NCBI RefSeq assembly: GCF_030013205.1
Contig: NZ_CP122648.1
Source of the DNA: Escherichia coli
GTDB lineage: Bacteria; Pseudomonadota; Gammaproteobacteria; Enterobacterales; Enterobacteriaceae
DNA: 64,000 nucleotides
Reading direction: 5' to 3' (one strand)
Numbering within the stretch: the first letter of the stretch is position 1; each line of letters opens with the position of its first letter. The notes below the pieces were generated by a model, which ran no database searches, was not told where the DNA came from, and saw only the letters and a program-made list of their open reading frames with translations. This document shows, piece by piece, positions 9,553 through 36,460 of the stretch. The position numbers and the translations under genes are program-made.

Positions 9553-9580
9553 TTAATTAATCAACATAAGGAAAATCGAC

Positions 9581-10540
9581 ATGAAAATTTGTATCGACGA
9601 CGGCTCCACCAACATCAAGCTGGCATGGACTGAGAACGGCGAACGCCGCAACGCCATCAGCCCGAACAGCTTCAAGTCGGAATGGTCTGCGCCGTTCGGT
9701 GGCTCGCAGCCTGCGAACTACATGCTTGATGGCGTGCGCTATGGTTTTGATCCGGTCAGCGATCGCTTTGTCCAGACGACCGACACGCAATACCAGTACA
9801 GCGATGTGAATGTCATTGCCATTCATCACGCGCTGGTCAAATCAGGCATCACGCCTCAGGAGGTGGATGTGGTTGTCACCCTGCCACTGAGCGAGTATTT
9901 CGACACAAACGCACAGCCAGACATGGCCAACATCAACCGCAAAAAAGCGAACGTTATGCGCCCGGTGGAGTACCAGAACGGCGAAGCATTCACTATCCGT
10001 AACGTGCGGGTTATGCCTGAATCCATTCCGGCTGGTTTTAAGGCACTGGCTGACATGAGTCCGTTTGAATCCCTGCTGATTGTGGATTTGGGCGGAACCA
10101 CGCTGGATGTGGCAAAGGTTCAGGGGCAACTGGCAGGTATCAGCCAGGTGTTTTGCGATCCACACGTAGGCGTTTCTCTGATGGCTGATGCCGTGCTGTC
10201 GGTGATGGCCACTAACGGTATGCGTACCAGTCACCACATCGCCAATACCATTATTGAGCACCGTCACGATGAAGCCTGGCTACGCCAGCACATTCACAAT
10301 GACGCGCATTACAACAGCCTGATGGCGGTTATTCGTGAAAAGGAGGAAACACTGAAACAACGCGTGATCCGCGCGCTGGCGGGTTTTTCGGGTTACGGGC
10401 GGGTGATGGTTGTAGGTGGAGGAGCGGAGATTGTGGCACCCGCTATCCGCGAAGCCTGCGGAGTTAATGCGACTTTCATCGCGGACGGGGTGCCACAGTT
10501 TGCTCTGGTTAATGGGCTGTACGCAATGGACAAGGAGTAA
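9581..10540 (+). CDS. parM: ParM/StbA-like actin-family segregation ATPase
   Basis: MKICIDDGSTNIKLAW...ISPNSF...YSDVNVIAIHHAL...VMPESIPAG...IVDLGGTTLD...VGGGAEI...ALVNGLYAM tracks plasmid R1 ParM along its whole length (recalled alignment). Confidence 0.8.
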   Translation: MKICIDDGSTNIKLAWTENGERRNAISPNSFKSEWSAPFGGSQPANYMLDGVRYGFDPVSDRFVQTTDTQYQYSDVNVIAIHHALVKSGITPQEVDVVVTLPLSEYFDTNAQPDMANINRKKANVMRPVEYQNGEAFTIRNVRVMPESIPAGFKALADMSPFESLLIVDLGGTTLDVAKVQGQLAGISQVFCDPHVGVSLMADAVLSVMATNGMRTSHHIANTIIEHRHDEAWLRQHIHNDAHYNSLMAVIREKEETLKQRVIRALAGFSGYGRVMVVGGGAEIVAPAIREACGVNATFIADGVPQFALVNGLYAMDKE

Positions 10541-10544
10541 ATCA

Positions 10545-10859
10545 ATGACGACACCAACCAGACGGATAAGTTTCTATCTGAAGCCCGCCGTCGTCAAGAG
10601 CGAACGGGAGGCGTGCAGTTACCTCGACAGCCTGCCAGCCTCCGAACGCAGCCGCGCACAACGCGCGGCTTTTCTGGCCGGACTGGCTCTTATAAAACGC
10701 ATCCCCGCGTTGGCGTATTCGCTGGCAGAATGGTCAGAAGACGAAATAAGGATGCCACCGCTACCAGTACAGCCTGAAAAACCGGCGAAACCAGCAGCAG
10801 ACAGCGCCCCCCATATGCAGCAGGTGAAGAAGAATATTCAGGCGTTTTTTCCGAAGTGA
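10545..10859 (+). CDS. parR: ParR-like centromere-binding adaptor (putative)
   Basis: RRISFYLKPAVVKSEREACSYLDSLPASERSRAQRAAFLAGLALIKR resembles the R1 ParR N-terminal DNA-binding region; immediately downstream of parM. Confidence 0.6.
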   Translation: MTTPTRRISFYLKPAVVKSEREACSYLDSLPASERSRAQRAAFLAGLALIKRIPALAYSLAEWSEDEIRMPPLPVQPEKPAKPAADSAPHMQQVKKNIQAFFPK

Positions 10860-10873
10860 AAACAGGAGTAACT

Positions 10874-19398: not shown

Positions 19399-20547
19399 AT
19401 GACTTGGCCATCTGTCACGATTGAACAGTACAACACATTCAGCAGTTCACCGGACGGCGTGGAAAATACACTGCTGTTTGTGGGCAACGCACAAAACAAC
19501 AAAGGTAAGGTTCTGCCGGTTAACGCTAACAGCGATCTGGATGAACTGCTGGGAACAAACGCCAGCCCACTGAAGAATTTCCTTCAGTCCGCACTGACCA
19601 ATGCCGGACAAAATGCCTTTTTCTATGTTGCCATTCTGCCGGAAGCAGGCAAAGGCAAAGAAGCGACGCCAGCCTGCCAGGCATGGCAGAACGCCATACT
19701 GGCCGCTCAGGAAACTGTTTCAGTGGAAGGCGTGGTGATCACCGAACCGGTCAGCACGAAGGATGACATCAACGCCATACAGGCGTTACGTCAGACCATC
19801 ATCAATAAATATCAGCGCCGCATCTGGTTCATCCTGACCATCGCCGCCAACGACGGCAGTAAAACCTGGGCGGACTACGTTGCCGAACTGACCACGCTAC
19901 AGAAAGGTATTGCAGCCCCGCAAATCATGCTGGTTCCGGAAATTTTTGGCTTTGAACCGGGCGTTCTCGCCGGCCGTCTGTGTAACAGCGCCGTCACCAT
20001 TGCTGACAGTCCGGCGCGTGTGGCAACCGGGGCGCTGTCCGCACTGAAAACCACAGAGCGCCCGAAGGACAGCGCAGGGCAGGCAATTGATCTCGCCACC
20101 CTGCAGGCGCTGGCAACCGCCCGCTACAGCGTGCCCATGTGGTATGCCGACTATGACGGCCTTTACTGGGCCGATGGTGTGACACTTGAGGTGGAAGGCG
20201 GGGACTACAACGTCATTGAGCATGTCCGCATTGCTGACAAGGTGGCACGCCGCGTGCGGCTGATGGCCATCCCCAAAATTGCCGACCGCTCGCTGAACAG
20301 CACGCCGGGTAGCATTGCCGCACATGAAACGCTGTTTGCCCGCCCACTGCGTGCCATGGCGAAATCCACGCAAATTAACGGCATCACGTTTCCGGGCGAA
20401 GTGAAATCCCCCCAGAAAGGCGACGTGGTTATCACCTGGCAGGACGAAAAGACGGTCAGCATCAGCATTGTCGTCCGCCCTTACGCCTGCCCCAAAACCA
20501 TTAAGGTGGGCATTCAGCTGGATAAATCTCTGGAGGAGAACGCATGA
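19399..20547 (+). CDS. Tail sheath protein (putative)
   Basis: 382 aa, immediately upstream of a small tube-like protein, chaperone and tape measure. Confidence 0.5.
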   Translation: MTWPSVTIEQYNTFSSSPDGVENTLLFVGNAQNNKGKVLPVNANSDLDELLGTNASPLKNFLQSALTNAGQNAFFYVAILPEAGKGKEATPACQAWQNAILAAQETVSVEGVVITEPVSTKDDINAIQALRQTIINKYQRRIWFILTIAANDGSKTWADYVAELTTLQKGIAAPQIMLVPEIFGFEPGVLAGRLCNSAVTIADSPARVATGALSALKTTERPKDSAGQAIDLATLQALATARYSVPMWYADYDGLYWADGVTLEVEGGDYNVIEHVRIADKVARRVRLMAIPKIADRSLNSTPGSIAAHETLFARPLRAMAKSTQINGITFPGEVKSPQKGDVVITWQDEKTVSISIVVRPYACPKTIKVGIQLDKSLEENA

Positions 20548-20999
20548 CGACCCGCATTAACGGCATGGCCTTTGACGTTTATATCGGCGGAACGGATATC
20601 CACGTGAAAAACATTTCACTGGACATCAGCGATGAAAGCGCCGTTGCCAAAACCCGTGGCATCCCTGACGGCAAACTGCGCGGCCCTGTCAGTGCCGAAG
20701 GTGAAATTGAAATGAGTACCCGCAGCTTTAACCAACTCGGGGAAGTGGCTGCTCAGGCGGGATCGTGGCGCGATCTGCCGCCCATGGATTTTGTGTTTTA
20801 CGCCAATACGGGCACCGAAGAAATCCGCGTTGAAGCCTTCGGTTGCGAGCTGATGCTTTCCGGCCTGTTAAGCATTGACACCGAGAGCACAGATCTGACC
20901 ACGCACAAAATCAAGTACGTGGTGGCAAGCCCTGACTTTGTGCGTATCAACGGCGTGCCCGTTCTCTCAGAGAACGACGTGCGCGGACTGATGGGGTGA
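20544..20999 (+). CDS. Tail tube protein (putative)
   Basis: 151 aa, overlapping the sheath stop. Confidence 0.5.
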   Translation: MTTRINGMAFDVYIGGTDIHVKNISLDISDESAVAKTRGIPDGKLRGPVSAEGEIEMSTRSFNQLGEVAAQAGSWRDLPPMDFVFYANTGTEEIRVEAFGCELMLSGLLSIDTESTDLTTHKIKYVVASPDFVRINGVPVLSENDVRGLMG

Positions 21000-21002
21000 A
21001 CC

Positions 21003-21299
21003 ATGCAGGAGCATGAGCGCACCATTATCACCCTGGGCATTCTGGGCGGAATCGCTGCCGCAAGTCGGGTGCTGGCTGGCGCAGAGCCGATTACGTTGCG
21101 GTTGTTTGTGGGGCGAACCCTGCTGGGGAGCGCGCTGGGTGTTTCTGCCGCTGCCCTGCTGGTTCGTTACCCGAACCTTGACCCACTGGCCATTGCCGGC
21201 GCAGGCACTGCAATGGGCGTTGCCGGTTACCAGATTGTTGAAATCTTCCTGCGTCATATGCGCCGGAAGCTGAGCGAGAAAGAGAACAAAGAGGAGTAA
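21003..21299 (+). CDS. Holin-like membrane protein (putative)
   Basis: 98 aa with Gly/Ala-rich hydrophobic helices and a charged C-terminus; directly upstream of the endolysin. Confidence 0.5.
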   Translation: MQEHERTIITLGILGGIAAASRVLAGAEPITLRLFVGRTLLGSALGVSAAALLVRYPNLDPLAIAGAGTAMGVAGYQIVEIFLRHMRRKLSEKENKEE

Positions 21300-21304
21300 C
21301 AGCA

Positions 21305-21412
21305 ATGCTGTCCCGCAGGGAACAAAAAGCTGCTGCCATTGCCTGGAAAATTATCCGGGCACTGTGGTACTGGCTGCGCAAACCTCAGCAACCTCATAAG
21401 GAGCAAAAATGA
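21305..21412 (+). CDS. Small lysis-associated protein (35 aa, putative)
   Basis: MLSRREQKAAAIAWKIIRALWYWLRKPQQPHKEQK; ATGA overlap with the endolysin start; below the ORF-track cutoff. Confidence 0.3.
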   Translation: MLSRREQKAAAIAWKIIRALWYWLRKPQQPHKEQK

Positions 21413-21750
21413 AACTCTCCGATAAGCAACAACAATTTACCGTCATGATCGGAAAACTCATCCAGTTTGCCCATCAGCGCGGTTATGGCCTGACGTTCGG
21501 TGAGGCGTACCGCACGCCAGAACAGGCAAAACTCAACGCACAAAAGGGATCCGGCATTGCCAACAGCCTGCACTGCCAGCGGCTGGCCGTGGATTTTAAT
21601 CTGTTTATTAACGGTGAATATCAGACCCGCACAGAGGCCTACCGCGAGCTGGGCGAGTACTGGGAATCCCTTGGTGGCGCATGGGGCGGTCGTTTTAAAA
21701 ACCGCCCGGATGGCAATCATTTCAGCCTTGAGCACGACGGCGTGCGCTGA
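21409..21750 (+). CDS. Endolysin, peptidase M15 family (L-alanyl-D-glutamate peptidase type)
   Basis: SLHCQRLAVDFNLF ... GGRFKNRPDGNHFSLEH zinc-ligand motifs typical of M15 phage endolysins. Confidence 0.7.
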   Translation: MKLSDKQQQFTVMIGKLIQFAHQRGYGLTFGEAYRTPEQAKLNAQKGSGIANSLHCQRLAVDFNLFINGEYQTRTEAYRELGEYWESLGGAWGGRFKNRPDGNHFSLEHDGVR

Positions 21751-21814
21751 TTTTACGCTTAATAAGCCTTCCTGCAGGCTTATTAAGCCCTCTTATTCTT
21801 GACTTTAAAAGGAA

Positions 21815-22108
21815 ATGATGATGAACGATAAAAACACCCAGACTACCGCAGAGAACACCATCACTTTACAGGTCGGCGAGCATGAACTGACGTTTATCCC
21901 GACCGTAAAAGCCTACAACGACCTGCAGAACGACTTCATGCCGGATAACAAAATCGCGCCGCTGAAAAACTACCTGCGCCGTATCGTGATTAAAGAGCAC
22001 CGCGATCTGCTTAACCAGTTGCTGGAAAAACCAGGAATGCCGGCCAGCCTGGCAACAGCCGTGAATAACGAGTTTGTGCCGGAAGTGGAAATCACCGTAA
22101 AAAAATAA
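21815..22108 (+). CDS. Tail assembly chaperone (short product; a -1 frameshift would extend it to 22296)
   Basis: Immediately upstream of the tape measure gene; ends in the slippery A_AAA_AAA plus stop. Confidence 0.5.
   Translation: MMMNDKNTQTTAENTITLQVGEHELTFIPTVKAYNDLQNDFMPDNKIAPLKNYLRRIVIKEHRDLLNQLLEKPGMPASLATAVNNEFVPEVEITVKK
22099..22105 (+). other. A_AAA_AAA slippery heptamer for programmed -1 ribosomal frameshift
   Basis: Seven A in X_XXY_YYZ register followed by the 0-frame stop; the -1 frame stays open to the TAA at 22294-22296, abutting the tape measure ATG. Confidence 0.5.
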
Positions 22109-22295
22109 AAAGCCATCTGGGGGCCATTGATCGCAATGACCTTACCCGGATGCTGATTCTGCGCCGCCACTGGCTGCCCGGCGAGGATGACTCGCCGCAG
22201 TCACTGGCTGCCGCCGTCTGGCTGGATAACCACTACTGGGAAAATATGAGCATCGCCGTCAATAACGGCATTATCCGTGCTTTTAAGGGATCGTA

Positions 22296-34749: not shown

Positions 34750-34890
34750 ATGTCGCAAAAATCGCTTACGGCCATCACGTTCTGCGTGACGGTAATCCTC
34801 ATCATCTGGATGCTGCACGGCTCGCTGTGTGAAATACGGATGAGCTTCTGGGGAGCGGAGTTTGCGGCGTTCTTACAGTGTAAACAGTAA
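34750..34890 (+). CDS. Hok/Gef-family type I toxin (46 aa)
   Basis: MSQKSLTAITFCVTVILIIWMLHGSLCEIRMSFWGAEFAAFLQCKQ carries the Hok/Gef SLCEIR...AAF signature; long structured leader upstream; below the ORF-track cutoff. Confidence 0.65.
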   Translation: MSQKSLTAITFCVTVILIIWMLHGSLCEIRMSFWGAEFAAFLQCKQ

Positions 34891-35025
34891 GGAAACCGCG
34901 ACGGGGGAGCAATCCCCCGTCAATCGGTTGCCAGGGTATGGTCGAAGTGGCACCCAAATTTAAATTGAGGCCCACCAGTAAGAGTGGTGGGCTTAACGCT
35001 TATTTAAATTTGAAAGGAACTCTTT

Positions 35026-35322
35026 ATGAGTGAAATGGTATTTTGTCGCGGATGCGGCAAGGAAATACATAAAGATGCCACATCCTGCCCCAATTGTGGA
35101 GCACCTCAAAGAACAGCAAGTTCAAAAAGCAGAATGACAGCCGCACTACTGGCTTTCTTTTTAGGTGGTCTTGGAGCACACAAATTTTATTTAGGTAAAG
35201 TGGGGCAAGGATTCCTTTACCTTATTTTTTGCTGGACATTCATTCCGGCAATCGTGGCATTTATTGAGTTTTTTATCTATCTATGCACCTCTGATGAAGA
35301 CTTTGCCCGCAAATATGGCTAA
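35026..35322 (+). CDS. Zinc-ribbon plus TM2-domain membrane protein
   Basis: CRGCGKEIHKDATSCPNCGAP zinc ribbon followed by LLAFFLGGLGAHKFYLGKVGQGFLYL; AT-rich. Confidence 0.6.
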   Translation: MSEMVFCRGCGKEIHKDATSCPNCGAPQRTASSKSRMTAALLAFFLGGLGAHKFYLGKVGQGFLYLIFCWTFIPAIVAFIEFFIYLCTSDEDFARKYG

Positions 35323-35347
35323 TGCCTAGTGGGCGAATCAGAATGAC

Positions 35348-35382
35348 AAACCCGCAGCGTAAAAACTGCGGGTTTTCTTTTT
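35348..35382 (+). terminator. Intrinsic terminator after the TM2-domain gene
   Basis: aaacccgcagcgtaaaaactgcgggttttcttttt. Confidence 0.6.
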
Positions 35383-35429
35383 GCTACCCTCACAAATGAG
35401 GACACCATACATAAGCAATAGGCATAACA

Positions 35430-35464
35430 GATCGATGCAATAAATCCGATCGATAAAAACGATC
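35430..35464. promoter_or_regulatory. Cluster of three GATCGAT (Dam GATC) sites upstream of the com-like gene
   Basis: GATC at 35430-35433, 35448-35451 and 35461-35464, about 50-80 bp upstream of the com-like start. Confidence 0.4.
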
Positions 35465-35511
35465 GATTTGTTATCATATCGGCAGCAGTAACCACACAAG
35501 AGGTGCCGCAA

Positions 35512-35709
35512 ATGACGCAAAATGTACGATGCAAAAATTGCAACAAACTACTTGCCCGCGCCTCATTTCACTACATTGAAATAAAATGTCCGCGCTGCAA
35601 AACACTTAACCAGATAACGAGAGCCATCGAGCACCCCACACACATGAGGAGTTATGACCGTGGGGATCGCAATCCAGCACCAACCAGCACATATACCGGA
35701 ACACACTAA
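35512..35709 (+). CDS. com: Com-like zinc-finger translational regulator (phage Mu Com family, putative)
   Basis: MTQNVRCKNCNKLLARASFHYIEIKCPRCKTLNQITRAIEHPT vs recalled Mu Com MKSIRCKNCNKLLFKADSFDHIEIRCPRCK...CEHPT; AAGAGGTG RBS; overlaps the 5' end of the methyltransferase ORF. Confidence 0.6.
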   Translation: MTQNVRCKNCNKLLARASFHYIEIKCPRCKTLNQITRAIEHPTHMRSYDRGDRNPAPTSTYTGTH

Positions 35710-36460
35710 GGTTTATCAGACTGACAATGCCACGCTCTGTCGTGGGAATGCGCTGGAAATATTGCCGCTGATTGAGCCAGAAAGCATTGATGCCTTAATC
35801 ACTGACCCGCCTTACAGTTCGGGTGCGACACACAAGGCCGGACGCACCAACCAGGGCAGCCATGCAAAATATCTGAACGGCGAGAACCTTCACCGCTTTG
35901 ATGGGTTCGCTGGTGAAAACATGGACGCCCGTTCGTGGGCTTACTGGACACAATTATGGATGGCACAGGCACACCGTGCAGTCAGGCCGGGCGGTTATGC
36001 CCTGGTATTTACTGACTGGCGACAACTACCAGCTTTAACCGATGCGTTTCAGGCCAGTGGCTTTACATGGCGCGGCATCATTGCGTGGAACAAGGGGAGG
36101 GGGTCACGAACACCCCATACGGGGTATTTCAGGCATCAGTGCGAATACATCGTCTGGGGCAGCAAAGGCCATTTAGATAAATCGCCTTCGGGGCCGTTCG
36201 ACGGTTGCATGACGTACCCGGTTATCCCGTCAAAGAAAATGCACCCGACCGGAAAACCAGAAGAACTAATGGCGGAACTGGTCAGGACTGTGAATAGTGG
36301 CGGAACAGTCCTTGATCCTTTTATGGGGTCAGGGACAACGGGTGTGGCTGCACTGAAAGCAGGGCGAAAATTTATTGGTATAGAAACCAGTGATCATTAT
36401 TTTGAGGTAGCAGCGCAGCGGCTTCGAGAGACTATTACCACAACCATTTCGGCTACATAA
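35654..36460 (+). CDS. DNA amino-methyltransferase (N6-adenine or N4-cytosine; DPPY motif before the AdoMet motif)
   Basis: ...IDALITDPPYSSG... and ...VLDPFMGSGTTGVAALKAGRKFIGIE...; start lies inside the com-like ORF (ATG 35654, or GTG 35660). Confidence 0.8.
   Translation: MTVGIAIQHQPAHIPEHTKVYQTDNATLCRGNALEILPLIEPESIDALITDPPYSSGATHKAGRTNQGSHAKYLNGENLHRFDGFAGENMDARSWAYWTQLWMAQAHRAVRPGGYALVFTDWRQLPALTDAFQASGFTWRGIIAWNKGRGSRTPHTGYFRHQCEYIVWGSKGHLDKSPSGPFDGCMTYPVIPSKKMHPTGKPEELMAELVRTVNSGGTVLDPFMGSGTTGVAALKAGRKFIGIETSDHYFEVAAQRLRETITTTISAT

What the first reader, a model, noticed from the sequence alone, without database searches (positions are those of the whole stretch)
21003..21750. Lysis cassette embedded between tail tube and tail chaperone genes
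A holin-like membrane protein, a 35-aa overlapping ORF and an M15-family endolysin sit inside the tail operon rather than in a separate lysis block. No spanin pair is evident nearby; the 35-aa ORF or unannotated embedded ORFs could supply that function.
Basis: partly seen in the sequence, partly recalled or inferred. Interest (0 to 1): 0.35.

Follow-up and report, generated by a model that had tools for sequence, protein, structure and literature searches.

The report
Spanin-less lysis cassette with cationic peptide
An E. coli prophage keeps its cell-bursting genes inside its tail-gene operon, which is normal for its phage family. It has lost the usual gene pair that breaks the outer membrane and instead carries a conserved 35-residue positively charged helical peptide, unannotated in RefSeq, that may do that job.

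Summary
The three ORFs exist exactly as described. They are a P2-gpY/HP1-type holin (21003-21299), a 35-aa ORF (21305-21412) and a 113-aa M15 endolysin (21409-21750), between the tail tube and tail chaperone genes of an intact P2/HP1-like prophage of E. coli.

The position is not unusual. HP1 and the closest described phages (Yersinia vB_YenM_324, Escherichia ESSI2_ev015) have the same order.

What is unusual is the content. In 81 related loci across Enterobacterales, the holin gene abuts or overlaps the endolysin gene and an overlapped i-/o-spanin pair follows. In one monophyletic Escherichia clade (24 loci, four diverged subtypes) the spanin pair is gone. A small ORF sits between holin and endolysin instead.

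That ORF keeps its frame, and its stop abuts or overlaps the endolysin start. It also keeps a net charge of +7 to +9 and an amphipathic helix, despite 18-34% identity between subtypes. It has no family assignment.

No spanin, nested lipoprotein ORF or second lysis cluster exists in the prophage or elsewhere in the window.

My best reading is a disruptin-like peptide, analogous but not homologous to phiKT gp28, that disrupts the outer membrane. This function is inferred, not shown. A second spanin-less lineage without the ORF weakens the inference.

The parts
20544..20999 (+). Tail tube gene. It forms the upstream boundary of the cassette, and its stop lies 3 nt before the holin start.
   Evidence: PF10772 Phage_HP1_Orf24 at E 1.1e-51 and phrog_1182 at E 3.9e-66.
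21003..21299 (+). Holin of 98 aa, of the P2 gpY / 'phage holin family 2' type.
   Evidence: PF04550 at E 5.5e-28 and phrog_175 at E 1.2e-32. It is 49% identical to P2 Y over aa 22-84. Hydrophobic segments lie at 7-27 and 36-54, with a weaker one at 60-83, followed by a charged C-tail. It is homologous to phiKT holin gp29 (29% over 75 aa, E 3e-12).
21305..21412 (+). orf35: MLSRREQKAAAIAWKIIRALWYWLRKPQQPHKEQK. A cationic (+7), Trp-rich amphipathic-helix peptide gene. It is a candidate disruptin-like outer-membrane disruptor and is not annotated in RefSeq.
   Evidence: - Translation signals: ATG with AGGAG 8 nt upstream, and a stop overlapping the endolysin ATG.
- Four diverged subtypes occupy the same slot.
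- One variant has an in-frame single-codon deletion.
- Of 26 variable sites, 12 are synonymous and 14 nonsynonymous against 24% expected synonymous (p = 0.011). The other two frames are not significant.
- Nucleotide diversity at codon positions 1/2/3 is .056/.059/.107.
- Maximum hydrophobic moment is 0.61-0.78 and net charge +7 to +9 in all subtypes.
- AlphaFold2 predicts a helix at residues 4-25.
- Composition-matched shuffles reproduce an ORF with this charge and moment in 0.05-0.17% of trials.
- No match in Pfam, PHROGs or NCBIfam.
21409..21750 (+). Soluble M15-family endolysin of 113 aa, probably an L-alanyl-D-glutamate endopeptidase.
   Evidence: PF13539 at E 3.2e-11 and endolysin PHROGs. 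It is 75-77% identical to the endolysins of vB_YenM_324 and ESSI2_ev015. A weak PDB match to the 8q2g L-Ala-D-Glu endopeptidase aligns SxHxxxxAVD (H55, D62) and DGxHF (D101, H104). It has no transmembrane or signal segment.
21757..21788 (+). A 13-bp perfect hairpin with a T-rich tail, followed by the conserved sequence GCCCTCTTATTCTTGAC up to the chaperone start. This short spacer occupies the slot where relatives carry the spanin genes.
   Evidence: Terminator-like hit. Centroid free energy is -18.6 kcal/mol and z is -4.2. It is conserved in 7 state-B variants, with compensatory changes at 4 pairs.
21815..22108 (+). Tail assembly chaperone gene, the downstream boundary of the cassette.
   Evidence: PF10963 at E 1.6e-26. 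RefSeq starts it at window position 21821.

Best explanation
This is the lysis cassette of an intact P2/HP1-like (Peduoviridae) prophage of E. coli, integrated between pheA/pheL and raiA. It is transcribed as part of the late sheath-tube operon.

Shown:
- The gpY-type holin and the soluble M15 peptidase are members of their families by HMM score.
- The cassette sits where HP1 and the closest phages keep theirs.
- The two-component spanin genes that follow the endolysin in the great majority of related cassettes surveyed are absent here.
- A small ORF, conserved in four diverged subtypes, is wedged between holin and endolysin. Its stop overlaps or abuts the endolysin start.

Inferred mechanism:
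1. The holin accumulates in the inner membrane and triggers to form large holes.
2. The endolysin and the 35-aa cationic amphipathic peptide leave the cytoplasm through those holes.
3. The endolysin cuts the peptide stems of the murein.
4. The peptide binds and destabilises the outer membrane from the periplasmic side. This replaces spanin-mediated membrane fusion, as the unrelated phiKT gp28 'disruptin' does.

My estimates:
- orf35 encodes a real peptide: about 0.8.
- The peptide does the outer-membrane step: about 0.45.
For: Cassette identity and layout.

The layout is the family norm: HP1 (PMC7312051), vB_YenM_324 and ESSI2_ev015.

Comparative survey of 111 loci:
- 81 loci from many Enterobacterales genera have the holin stop abutting or overlapping the endolysin start (one has a truncated holin), and 475-940 nt of i-/o-spanin genes before the chaperone.
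- 24 loci (E. coli, E. albertii and viral or metagenome contigs) have a 106-118-nt ORF-bearing gap instead, or in L115 an ORF overlapping both neighbours. In these, only 64-86 nt separate the endolysin from the chaperone.
- No locus has both the ORF and spanins.

No spanin exists anywhere in the window. No other lysis gene exists in the prophage or the window.

orf35 is coding:
- The frame is preserved, with the stop abutting or overlapping the endolysin start, in subtypes sharing only 18-34% aa identity.
- One variant has an in-frame codon deletion.
- There is a synonymous excess in this frame only (p = 0.011).
- Diversity at codon positions 1 and 2 is half that at position 3.
- The only nonsense variants truncate the disordered tail, after residue 27 or 33.
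- The spacer has no conserved RNA structure and no Rfam hit.

The physico-chemistry matches the disruptin and cationic antimicrobial peptide (CAMP) profile:
- net charge +7 to +9
- hydrophobic moment 0.61-0.78, against 0.675 for gp28, 0.51 for magainin and 0.55 for melittin
- a single helix at residues 4-25
- a chance probability of 0.05-0.17% in shuffles

Precedent: phiKT gp28 is 56 aa with net charge +7. It lies next to a holin homologous to this one and complements lambda Rz/Rz1 (bioRxiv 10.1101/515445).
Against: - The function is not demonstrated. There is no sequence similarity to gp28.
- The ORF-present, spanin-absent loci form one clade. The complementary distribution therefore reflects essentially one evolutionary history, not 24 independent trials.
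- A second lineage (L007 type) lost the spanins without gaining the ORF. Spanin loss alone can therefore persist, at least briefly. That lineage occurs in only 7 of 5426 genomes, all at least 99% identical.
- Purifying selection on orf35 is weak. The ratio of diversity at positions 1/2 to position 3 is about 0.5, against 0.05-0.2 in neighbouring genes.
- No isolated phage in the phage collection has this variant. Productive lysis by this clade is therefore unverified.
- The ORF lies upstream of the endolysin and not in the spanin slot. Gain and loss were therefore separate events.
Confidence: 0.5

Rival explanations
1. orf35 encodes a real peptide, but it acts at the inner membrane or holin level. 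It could be a lysis-timing modulator or antiholin, or a holin cofactor like LambdaSo Lcc6. On this reading the clade simply does without an outer-membrane disruptor and relies on turgor and shear once the murein is gone.
For: - The gene lies directly after the holin and is translationally linked to it and to the endolysin.
- An amphipathic cationic helix would also bind the anionic cytoplasmic face of the inner membrane.
- Small lysis-cassette proteins acting at the holin level exist (Lcc6, bioRxiv 10.1101/2024.01.23.576932).
- The L007 lineage shows that a spanin-less cassette without the ORF can exist.
Against: - Lcc6 and the membrane-embedded antiholins (own knowledge) have a transmembrane domain. 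orf35 has none.
- The ORF is found only where spanins are missing, and never among 81 spanin-bearing relatives that use holins of the same family.
- Spanins are essential for lambda lysis under non-shearing conditions (Berry et al. 2012, as cited in PMC12819732).
- The spanin-less clade has diversified to about 71% nt identity with all genes intact, which argues that lysis still works.
Confidence: 0.2
2. orf35 has no function as a peptide. The roughly 110-nt insert is a spacer whose open frame merely preserves ribosome hand-over from holin to endolysin, or it is a recent pseudo-ORF. The clade is spanin-deficient and possibly impaired in release.
For: - RefSeq (PGAP) does not call it.
- Selection is weak, with diversity at positions 1/2 about half that at position 3.
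- Two variants carry premature stops, Q28* and Q34*.
- 10-18% of shuffled spacers contain a gap-spanning ORF.
- No isolated phage carries this layout.
Against: - Charge, amphipathicity, helix and an invariant Trp and Leu are retained across four subtypes with 18-34% identity.
- The joint features arise in only 0.05-0.17% of shuffles.
- The synonymous excess is specific to this frame.
- There is an in-frame indel.
- The stops remove only the disordered tail.
- In subtype 4 the ORF overlaps both neighbours in normal gene-overlap style.
- Relatives achieve holin-to-endolysin coupling with no spacer at all, so a spacer is not needed for that.
Confidence: 0.15
3. A spanin or another dedicated outer-membrane disruptor is present but hidden. 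It could be nested in another frame, lie elsewhere in the prophage, or have a non-canonical anchor.
For: - Nested spanins have been overlooked before (LambdaSo).
- o-spanin annotation problems are common in phage genomes: 196 not identified and 64 with a wrong start among 677 genomes (Kongari 2018).
- A +1-frame ORF with a lipobox-like 'STTAC' lies at 21671-21802.
Against: - All-frame scans, including relaxed thresholds and near-cognate starts, find no lipobox ORF with a conserved mature part. They also find no ORF with an N-terminal transmembrane domain other than the holin.
- The same scan recovers 72 of 82 relatives' o-spanins.
- The 21671 ORF is a frame artefact.
- Relatives' spanins have no match in the window.
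- Ten hypothetical prophage proteins hit no lysis PHROG.
Confidence: 0.05

Closest known systems
Lysis cassettes of Yersinia phage vB_YenM_324 (OM095401) and Escherichia phage ESSI2_ev015 / Cronobacter ESSI-2 (NC_049395), Peduoviridae
   Same: The gene order sheath-tube-holin-M15 endolysin-...-tail chaperone-tape measure is the same. The endolysin is 113 aa and 75-77% identical, the holin 48-60%, and the tube 48-54%.
   Different: In those phages the holin overlaps the endolysin, and an overlapped i-spanin/o-spanin pair (about 113 aa and 96-99 aa with a lipobox) fills the 480-490 nt before the chaperone. Here that pair is replaced by a 64-nt hairpin spacer, and a 35-aa ORF is inserted between holin and endolysin.
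Haemophilus phage HP1 hol-lys module
   Same: The lysis genes lie directly downstream of the tail tube gene (ORF24, the Pfam PF10772 namesake) inside the late tail operon (PMC7312051). HP1 and HP2 have two-component spanins (Kongari 2018).
   Different: HP1 uses a pinholin and a SAR muraminidase. This cassette has a gpY-type holin and a soluble M15 peptidase, and no spanin.
phiKT gp28, the archetype 'disruptin' (Holt et al.; bioRxiv 10.1101/515445)
   Same: Both are small peptides (56 aa against 35 aa) with net charge +7 and a predicted amphipathic helix (hydrophobic moment 0.675 against 0.62). Neither has a transmembrane domain or signal. Both genes sit between endolysin and holin in a spanin-less E. 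coli phage. The neighbouring holins are homologous.
   Different: There is no detectable sequence similarity. gp28 belongs to phrog_35982, whereas orf35 belongs to no family. gp28 is from a virulent podophage and its function was shown by complementation. orf35 is from a temperate P2/HP1-like myophage and is untested.
Phage P2 lysis region (Y holin, K endolysin, lysA, lysB/lysC spanin)
   Same: The holin family is the same (49% identity to Y). In both, lysis genes are embedded in a morphogenetic late operon (own knowledge of the P2 map). A P2-type cassette carrying this M15 endolysin with LysB/LysC-like spanins exists (L028).
   Different: P2 places the cassette between the head-completion and tail-completion genes, uses a lysozyme-type endolysin, and has spanins.
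LambdaSo Lcc6 (65-aa lysis cofactor)
   Same: It is a small, previously unrecognised protein required for lysis besides holin and endolysin.
   Different: Lcc6 is a transmembrane protein acting at the holin level, and LambdaSo still has nested spanins. orf35 has no transmembrane domain, and this phage has no spanins.

Membership tests
Phage holin family 2 (Pfam PF04550; P2 gpY type, class I holin) | Profile HMM score above the curated threshold | tested here: met
   97.6 bits against a cutoff of 25, E 5.5e-28, covering 85 of 86 profile positions. phrog_175 holin at E 1.2e-32. 49% identity to P2 Y.
Phage holin family 2 (Pfam PF04550; P2 gpY type, class I holin) | Small membrane protein with at least two transmembrane segments and a charged C-terminal tail, encoded next to the endolysin | tested here: met
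   Kyte-Doolittle segments at 7-27 and 36-54, with a weaker one at 60-83. The C-tail is RHMRRKLSEKENKEE. The gene is adjacent to the cassette partners.
Phage holin family 2 (Pfam PF04550; P2 gpY type, class I holin) | Timed lethal hole formation that releases a soluble endolysin | not testable with these tools
   This needs expression and lysis assays.
Peptidase M15 endolysin (PF13539 Peptidase_M15_4; L-Ala-D-Glu endopeptidase type) | Profile HMM score above the curated threshold | tested here: met
   44.1 bits against a cutoff of 25, E 3.2e-11. Endolysin PHROGs 1768, 465 and 2649.
Peptidase M15 endolysin (PF13539 Peptidase_M15_4; L-Ala-D-Glu endopeptidase type) | Zn-binding H-x6-D ... H triad with a D-x-x-H catalytic motif | tested here: met
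   H55-x6-D62 and D101-G-N-H104 align with the corresponding motifs of PDB 8q2g. The overall match is weak (E 0.07). The motifs are invariant in relatives.
Two-component spanin (Rz/Rz1 type) | An o-spanin: a small ORF with a signal peptide and lipobox Cys | tested here: not met
   All-frame scans find none with a conserved mature part. The scan recovers the o-spanin in 72 of 82 related loci.
Two-component spanin (Rz/Rz1 type) | An i-spanin: an ORF with an N-terminal transmembrane domain and a periplasmic coiled-coil domain, adjacent to or overlapping the o-spanin | tested here: not met
   In 20900-22200 only the holin has an N-terminal transmembrane domain. Relatives' i-spanins have no match in the window (best E 1.9).
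Unimolecular spanin (T1 gp11 type) | An N-terminal lipobox plus a C-terminal transmembrane domain in one polypeptide | tested here: not met
   No credible lipobox ORF in the prophage.
Disruptin (functional class founded by phiKT gp28) | A small (<80 aa), strongly cationic (at least +4) peptide with a predicted amphipathic helix and no transmembrane domain or signal | tested here: met
   35 aa with net charge +7. Hydrophobic moment 0.62, and 0.61-0.78 across subtypes. AlphaFold2 helix at residues 4-25. No transmembrane domain.
Disruptin (functional class founded by phiKT gp28) | Encoded in the lysis cassette of a phage that lacks spanins | tested here: met
   The gene lies between holin and endolysin. 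Spanins are absent from the prophage.
Disruptin (functional class founded by phiKT gp28) | Sequence homology to gp28 | tested here: not met
   No blastp similarity, and the two fall in different PHROGs or none. The class is defined by function, so this excludes common ancestry, not an analogous mechanism.
Disruptin (functional class founded by phiKT gp28) | Complements a spanin-null phage, and the synthetic peptide permeabilises the outer membrane | not testable with these tools
   This needs the lambda Rz-am Rz1-am complementation assay used in 10.1101/515445.
HP1-like late-operon lysis module | Holin and endolysin genes immediately downstream of the tail tube gene | tested here: met
   The tube gene (PF10772) ends at 20999 and the holin starts at 21003. 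The HP1 layout is described in PMC7312051.

The most novel reading that the evidence does not exclude
orf35 and its three sister subtypes would be a second, evolutionarily independent family of phage disruptins. The family arose in a P2/HP1-like temperate phage lineage of Escherichia and took over from a two-component spanin within an otherwise colinear cassette. This would be a natural swap experiment, showing that a 27-35-residue Trp/Arg/Lys-rich amphipathic helix suffices for the outer-membrane step of lysis.
Probability: 0.4. Interest if true: 0.6.

Novelty: new variant of a known kind. Interest (0 to 1): 0.45.

Why it matters
About 13% of phages of Gram-negative hosts have no recognisable spanin (91 of 677; Kongari 2018). 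A January 2026 paper still names only the phiKT peptide as a disruptin example. It calls it an open question whether spanin-less phages generally encode disruptins (PMC12819732).

Here the comparison is unusually clean. The cassette, holin family and endolysin are the same across relatives. Dozens of relatives have spanins, and one clade lacks them and has an extra cationic peptide gene.

This gives a specific candidate that can be tested cheaply with the established lambda complementation assay. If confirmed, it would provide a second sequence family from which to learn what defines a disruptin. It would also supply a short natural outer-membrane-active peptide.

The case also shows that genome annotation misses a conserved lysis-cassette gene present on more than 1000 public contigs.

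If the peptide is not the disruptor, the finding reduces to an ordinary HP1-type lysis cassette in a spanin-deficient prophage.

Tried and rejected
1. Embedded lipoprotein ORF at 21671/21674/21710-21802 ('MAIISALSTTAC...'): rejected.
   - It is the +1 frame of the conserved endolysin C-terminus and appears equally in spanin-bearing phages.
   - The part after the Cys is unconserved and is 5-18 aa long.
   - The Met is lost in L026 and L027.

2. Spanin elsewhere in the window: rejected.
   - tblastn of relatives' i-/o-spanins and a Burkholderia Rz found nothing.
   - A lipobox scan of the whole prophage found nothing credible.
   - PHROGs on 10 hypothetical proteins gave no lysis category.
   - The rest of the window is host chromosome.

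3. The spacer as a structured RNA: rejected.
   - No Rfam hit.
   - The fold z-score is only -2.0.
   - The alifold covariation term is unfavourable, and pairs break in the diverged subtypes.

4. Homology of orf35 to known families or to gp28: none found in Pfam, PHROGs or NCBIfam, by blastp, or by tblastn against phage records.
   - A profile search of 1.84 billion representative proteins found only the four subtypes plus spurious repeat proteins.

5. Origin of orf35 from an i-spanin transmembrane segment: only a 13-aa match at E 5.5, so not supported.

6. The 24-to-0 complementary distribution as statistical proof: rejected. The ORF-bearing loci are monophyletic.

Full report
**Observation.**
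- 21003-21299, 98 aa
- 21305-21412, 35 aa
- 21409-21750, 113 aa

The 98-aa protein is a member of Pfam PF04550 'phage holin family 2' (E 5.5e-28, 97.6 bits against a cutoff of 25) and of phrog_175 holin. It is 49% identical to P2 gpY over residues 22-84. It has two strong hydrophobic segments, one weaker segment and a charged C-terminal tail.

The 113-aa protein is a PF13539 M15 peptidase (E 3.2e-11) that matches endolysin PHROGs. It has no hydrophobic N-terminus. Its H55-x6-D62 and D101-x-x-H104 motifs align with a solved L-Ala-D-Glu endopeptidase, 8q2g, although the overall match is weak.

The flanking genes are sheath, tube (PF10772 'HP1 Orf24'), tail assembly chaperone, DUF6890 and tape measure.

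**Context.** The window is E. coli chromosome, 100% identical over the tested stretch to strain ETEC4079.
- The cassette belongs to an intact P2/HP1-like prophage of about 34 kb between pheA/pheL and raiA.
- The rest of the window is host DNA: clpB, an rRNA operon, and genes through rpoE.
- RefSeq annotates the holin and the M15 peptidase. It annotates neither the 35-aa ORF nor any spanin.
- The same prophage region occurs in 41 of 5426 complete E. coli genomes.
- No isolated phage record contains it. Megablast found nothing, and every holin match in phage records is below 60% identity.

**Is the position unusual? No.**
- In HP1, hol and lys lie between the tail tube gene ORF24 and ORF25 (PMC7312051).
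- The closest described phages are Yersinia phage vB_YenM_324 and Escherichia phage ESSI2_ev015. Their order is sheath-tube-holin-M15 endolysin-i-spanin-o-spanin-chaperone-tape measure.
- Their endolysin is also 113 aa and is 75-77% identical to this one.
- The headline of the finding therefore describes the family norm.

**What is unusual.** I collected 111 loci encoding this endolysin:
- 80 IMG/VR contigs
- 24 GTDB species genomes
- 2 phages
- 3 E. coli prophages
- 1 metagenome contig
- the window itself

I measured the two intergenic distances in each.

In 81 loci the holin stop abuts or overlaps the endolysin start, apart from one locus with a truncated holin. In these loci 475-502 nt, or about 940 nt in two cases, separate the endolysin from the chaperone.
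- These loci come from Enterobacter, Hafnia, Kluyvera, Yersinia, Serratia, Photorhabdus, Xenorhabdus, Providencia, Erwinia and other genera.
- The interval holds an i-spanin with an N-terminal transmembrane domain.
- It also holds an overlapped o-spanin of 96-99 aa with canonical lipoboxes such as LLMNMSGC and LMSLSAC.

In 24 loci the spanin interval is reduced to 64-86 nt, and a small ORF lies between holin and endolysin.
- These are the window, 19 near-identical viral contigs, E. albertii, and the diverged loci L005, L027 and L115.
- No locus has both spanins and the ORF.
- These 24 loci form one clade in both the endolysin tree and the holin tree. The pattern therefore reflects one history, not many independent events.
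- One further lineage (L007, E. coli LZSFT34) lost the spanins independently and has no small ORF. It occurs in only 7 of 5426 genomes, all at least 99% identical.

**No hidden spanin.**
- An all-frame lipobox scan of the prophage found only one candidate, a +1-frame ORF at 21671-21802.
- The same scan detects host BamD in the window and recovers the o-spanin in 72 of 82 related loci.
- The 21671 ORF is an artefact. Its 'MAIISALSTTAC' is the out-of-frame reading of the conserved endolysin C-terminus DGNHFSLEH[DN]GVR.
- The same string occurs in spanin-bearing phages. The sequence after the Cys is 5-18 aa long and unconserved. The Met is lost in two relatives.
- A relaxed scan with near-cognate starts added nothing. 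The holin is the only ORF in the cassette with an N-terminal transmembrane domain.
- Relatives' spanins have no tblastn match in the window; the best E is 0.65.
- Ten hypothetical prophage proteins hit no lysis PHROG.

**Is the 35-aa ORF a gene? Probably yes.**
- It has an ATG with AGGAG 8 nt upstream, and its stop overlaps the endolysin ATG.
- Four subtypes exist in the same slot:

| Locus | Length | Sequence |
|---|---|---|
| Window | 35 aa | MLSRREQKAAAIAWKIIRALWYWLRKPQQPHKEQK |
| L005 | 35 aa | MNTTDRQWRVIATLWRYGQALWRLWKKLRNSNRRE |
| L027 | 41 aa from GTG | MTGKKASPGILSGMRQFAVKVWQLLRSLQKLRNSMNGKTRP |
| L115 | 39 aa | MKLTDRQQKRAAIAWKILRTLWRWLCKPQKTSKDKNETL |

- The L115 ORF overlaps the holin stop with ATGA and overlaps the endolysin start by 14 nt.
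- The subtypes share 18-34% identity, with an invariant Trp and Leu.
- All have net charge +7 to +9 and a maximum 18-residue hydrophobic moment of 0.61-0.78. This lies in the top 0.5-6% of their own shuffles, comparable to or above magainin 2 and melittin.
- Among 11 close nucleotide variants there are 26 variable sites. Twelve are synonymous against 24% expected (p = 0.011), and the other two frames show no excess.
- One variant has an in-frame single-codon deletion. The two nonsense variants remove only residues 28-35 or 34-35.
- AlphaFold2 predicts one helix at residues 4-25 and a disordered tail.
- Nucleotide diversity at codon positions 1 and 2 is half that at position 3. Constraint is therefore real but weak compared with neighbouring genes.
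- Composition-matched random spacers give a gap-spanning ORF in 10-18% of trials. They give one with this charge and moment in only 0.05-0.17%.
- The spacer is not a conserved RNA.
- Some gene callers have deposited the peptide as 'hypothetical protein'. Examples are EHO01281.1, UniRef A0A2X6GE95 and WP_305855007.1. There are 69 sequence variants on more than 1000 contigs.
- It belongs to no Pfam, PHROG or NCBIfam family.
- A profile search of 1.84 billion representative proteins found only the four subtypes.

**Mechanism.**

Shown: the family membership of holin and endolysin, the operon position, the absence of spanins, and the conservation and physico-chemistry of orf35.

Inferred:
1. The gpY-type holin forms large holes.
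2. The soluble M15 peptidase and the cytoplasmic peptide pass through them.
3. The peptidase degrades murein.
4. The peptide destabilises the outer membrane.

The precedent is phiKT gp28. It is a 56-aa, +7, amphipathic peptide encoded between endolysin and holin of a spanin-less coliphage, and it complements lambda Rz/Rz1 (bioRxiv 10.1101/515445). I found that phiKT's holin gp29 is a homologue of this holin (29% over 75 aa, E 3e-12). gp28 and orf35 are unrelated in sequence. The resemblance is therefore an analogy, not family membership.

**Caveats and rivals.**
- The peptide might act on the inner membrane or the holin. Small cofactors such as LambdaSo Lcc6 exist, though Lcc6 is a transmembrane protein.
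- The ORF might be only a translated spacer.
- The clade might simply tolerate the lack of an outer-membrane disruptor, as the L007 lineage suggests.
- Against mere tolerance: the ORF-bearing clade has diverged to about 71% nucleotide identity with all genes intact, whereas the ORF-less spanin-less lineage is rare and nearly clonal.

My estimates:
- orf35 is a real gene: about 0.8.
- It is the outer-membrane disruptor: about 0.45.
- It has an inner-membrane or holin-level role: about 0.2.
- It has no peptide function: about 0.15.
- A hidden spanin exists: about 0.05.

**Verdict.**
- The stated oddity, a cassette inside the tail operon, is ordinary for HP1-like Peduoviridae.
- The side remark about missing spanins is the substantive point.
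- The embedded-lipoprotein idea is rejected.
- The 35-aa ORF is a credible and testable candidate for a second disruptin family.
- Novelty: a new variant of a known kind.
- Interest is moderate. Specialists predicted such peptides, and a January 2026 paper names only the phiKT archetype. This clade offers a natural spanin-to-peptide swap that the standard lambda assay can test directly.

Noticed in passing
window 21757-21814: A 13-bp perfect hairpin lies right after the endolysin stop (centroid free energy -18.6 kcal/mol, z -4.2). It is followed by a T-rich stretch and the conserved sequence GCCCTCTTATTCTTGAC up to the chaperone start. It is conserved in 7 diverged relatives, with compensatory changes at 4 pairs. 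It fills the slot where relatives carry spanin genes. It could be a partial terminator or an mRNA stabiliser separating sheath/tube/lysis expression from chaperone/tape-measure expression.
   Followed up: partly
L007 / L112 (E. coli LZSFT34, NZ_CP132728.1 558117-559117): A related prophage lineage has holin-M15-chaperone with neither spanins nor the small ORF, and no lipobox ORF anywhere in the prophage. It is present in only 7 of 5426 genomes, all at least 99% identical. This is an independent spanin loss.
   Followed up: partly
L007:2508-3048 against E. coli CRISPR arrays: Many E. coli genomes carry CRISPR-array sequences that match the holin-endolysin junction, the endolysin gene and the tail-chaperone gene of the L007-type prophage (query positions 309-341, 614-654 and 797-849). 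This implies past exposure of E. coli to this phage group.
   Followed up: no
L002:4828-5118 and L003:4830-5129: The o-spanin CDSs of Yersinia phage vB_YenM_324 and Escherichia phage ESSI2_ev015 are annotated from a downstream start, as 62 aa without a signal peptide. In ESSI2_ev015 the CDS is named only 'hypothetical protein'. The full ORFs of 96-99 aa begin inside the i-spanin gene and carry the lipoboxes LLMNMSGC and LMSLSAC.
   Followed up: partly
L114:4283-4666 (phiKT gp29) against window 21003-21299: The holin of the disruptin-bearing phage phiKT is a homologue of this prophage's holin (29% identity over 75 aa, E 3e-12). Both spanin-less cassettes therefore pair a family-2 holin with a small cationic peptide gene.
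   Followed up: partly
window 21368-21370 (codon 22 of orf35): Residue 22 of the peptide is hypervariable (Y, H or R) among otherwise nearly identical variants. The flanking Trp21 and Trp23 are fixed within this subtype.
   Followed up: no
window about 9580-10860 and 34750-36460 (L001 10183-11461 and 35352-37062): The prophage carries ParM plus a plasmid-partition protein. At its right end it carries a Hok/Gef toxin gene, a TM2-domain protein, and a Com-like regulator with a DNA methyltransferase. This is accessory cargo unrelated to the lysis cassette.
   Followed up: no
L028:2000-3900: The same M15 endolysin (79% identity) also occurs in a classical P2-type lysis region: LysM-like protein, two membrane proteins, M15, then a LysB-like i-spanin with an embedded LysC-like o-spanin (lipobox IAAAC). 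The endolysin module therefore moves between cassette types, and this other context also has spanins.
   Followed up: partly
window about 48400-49700 (L116 9131-10427): The host gene kgtP is annotated as frameshifted in the matching RefSeq genome.
   Followed up: no
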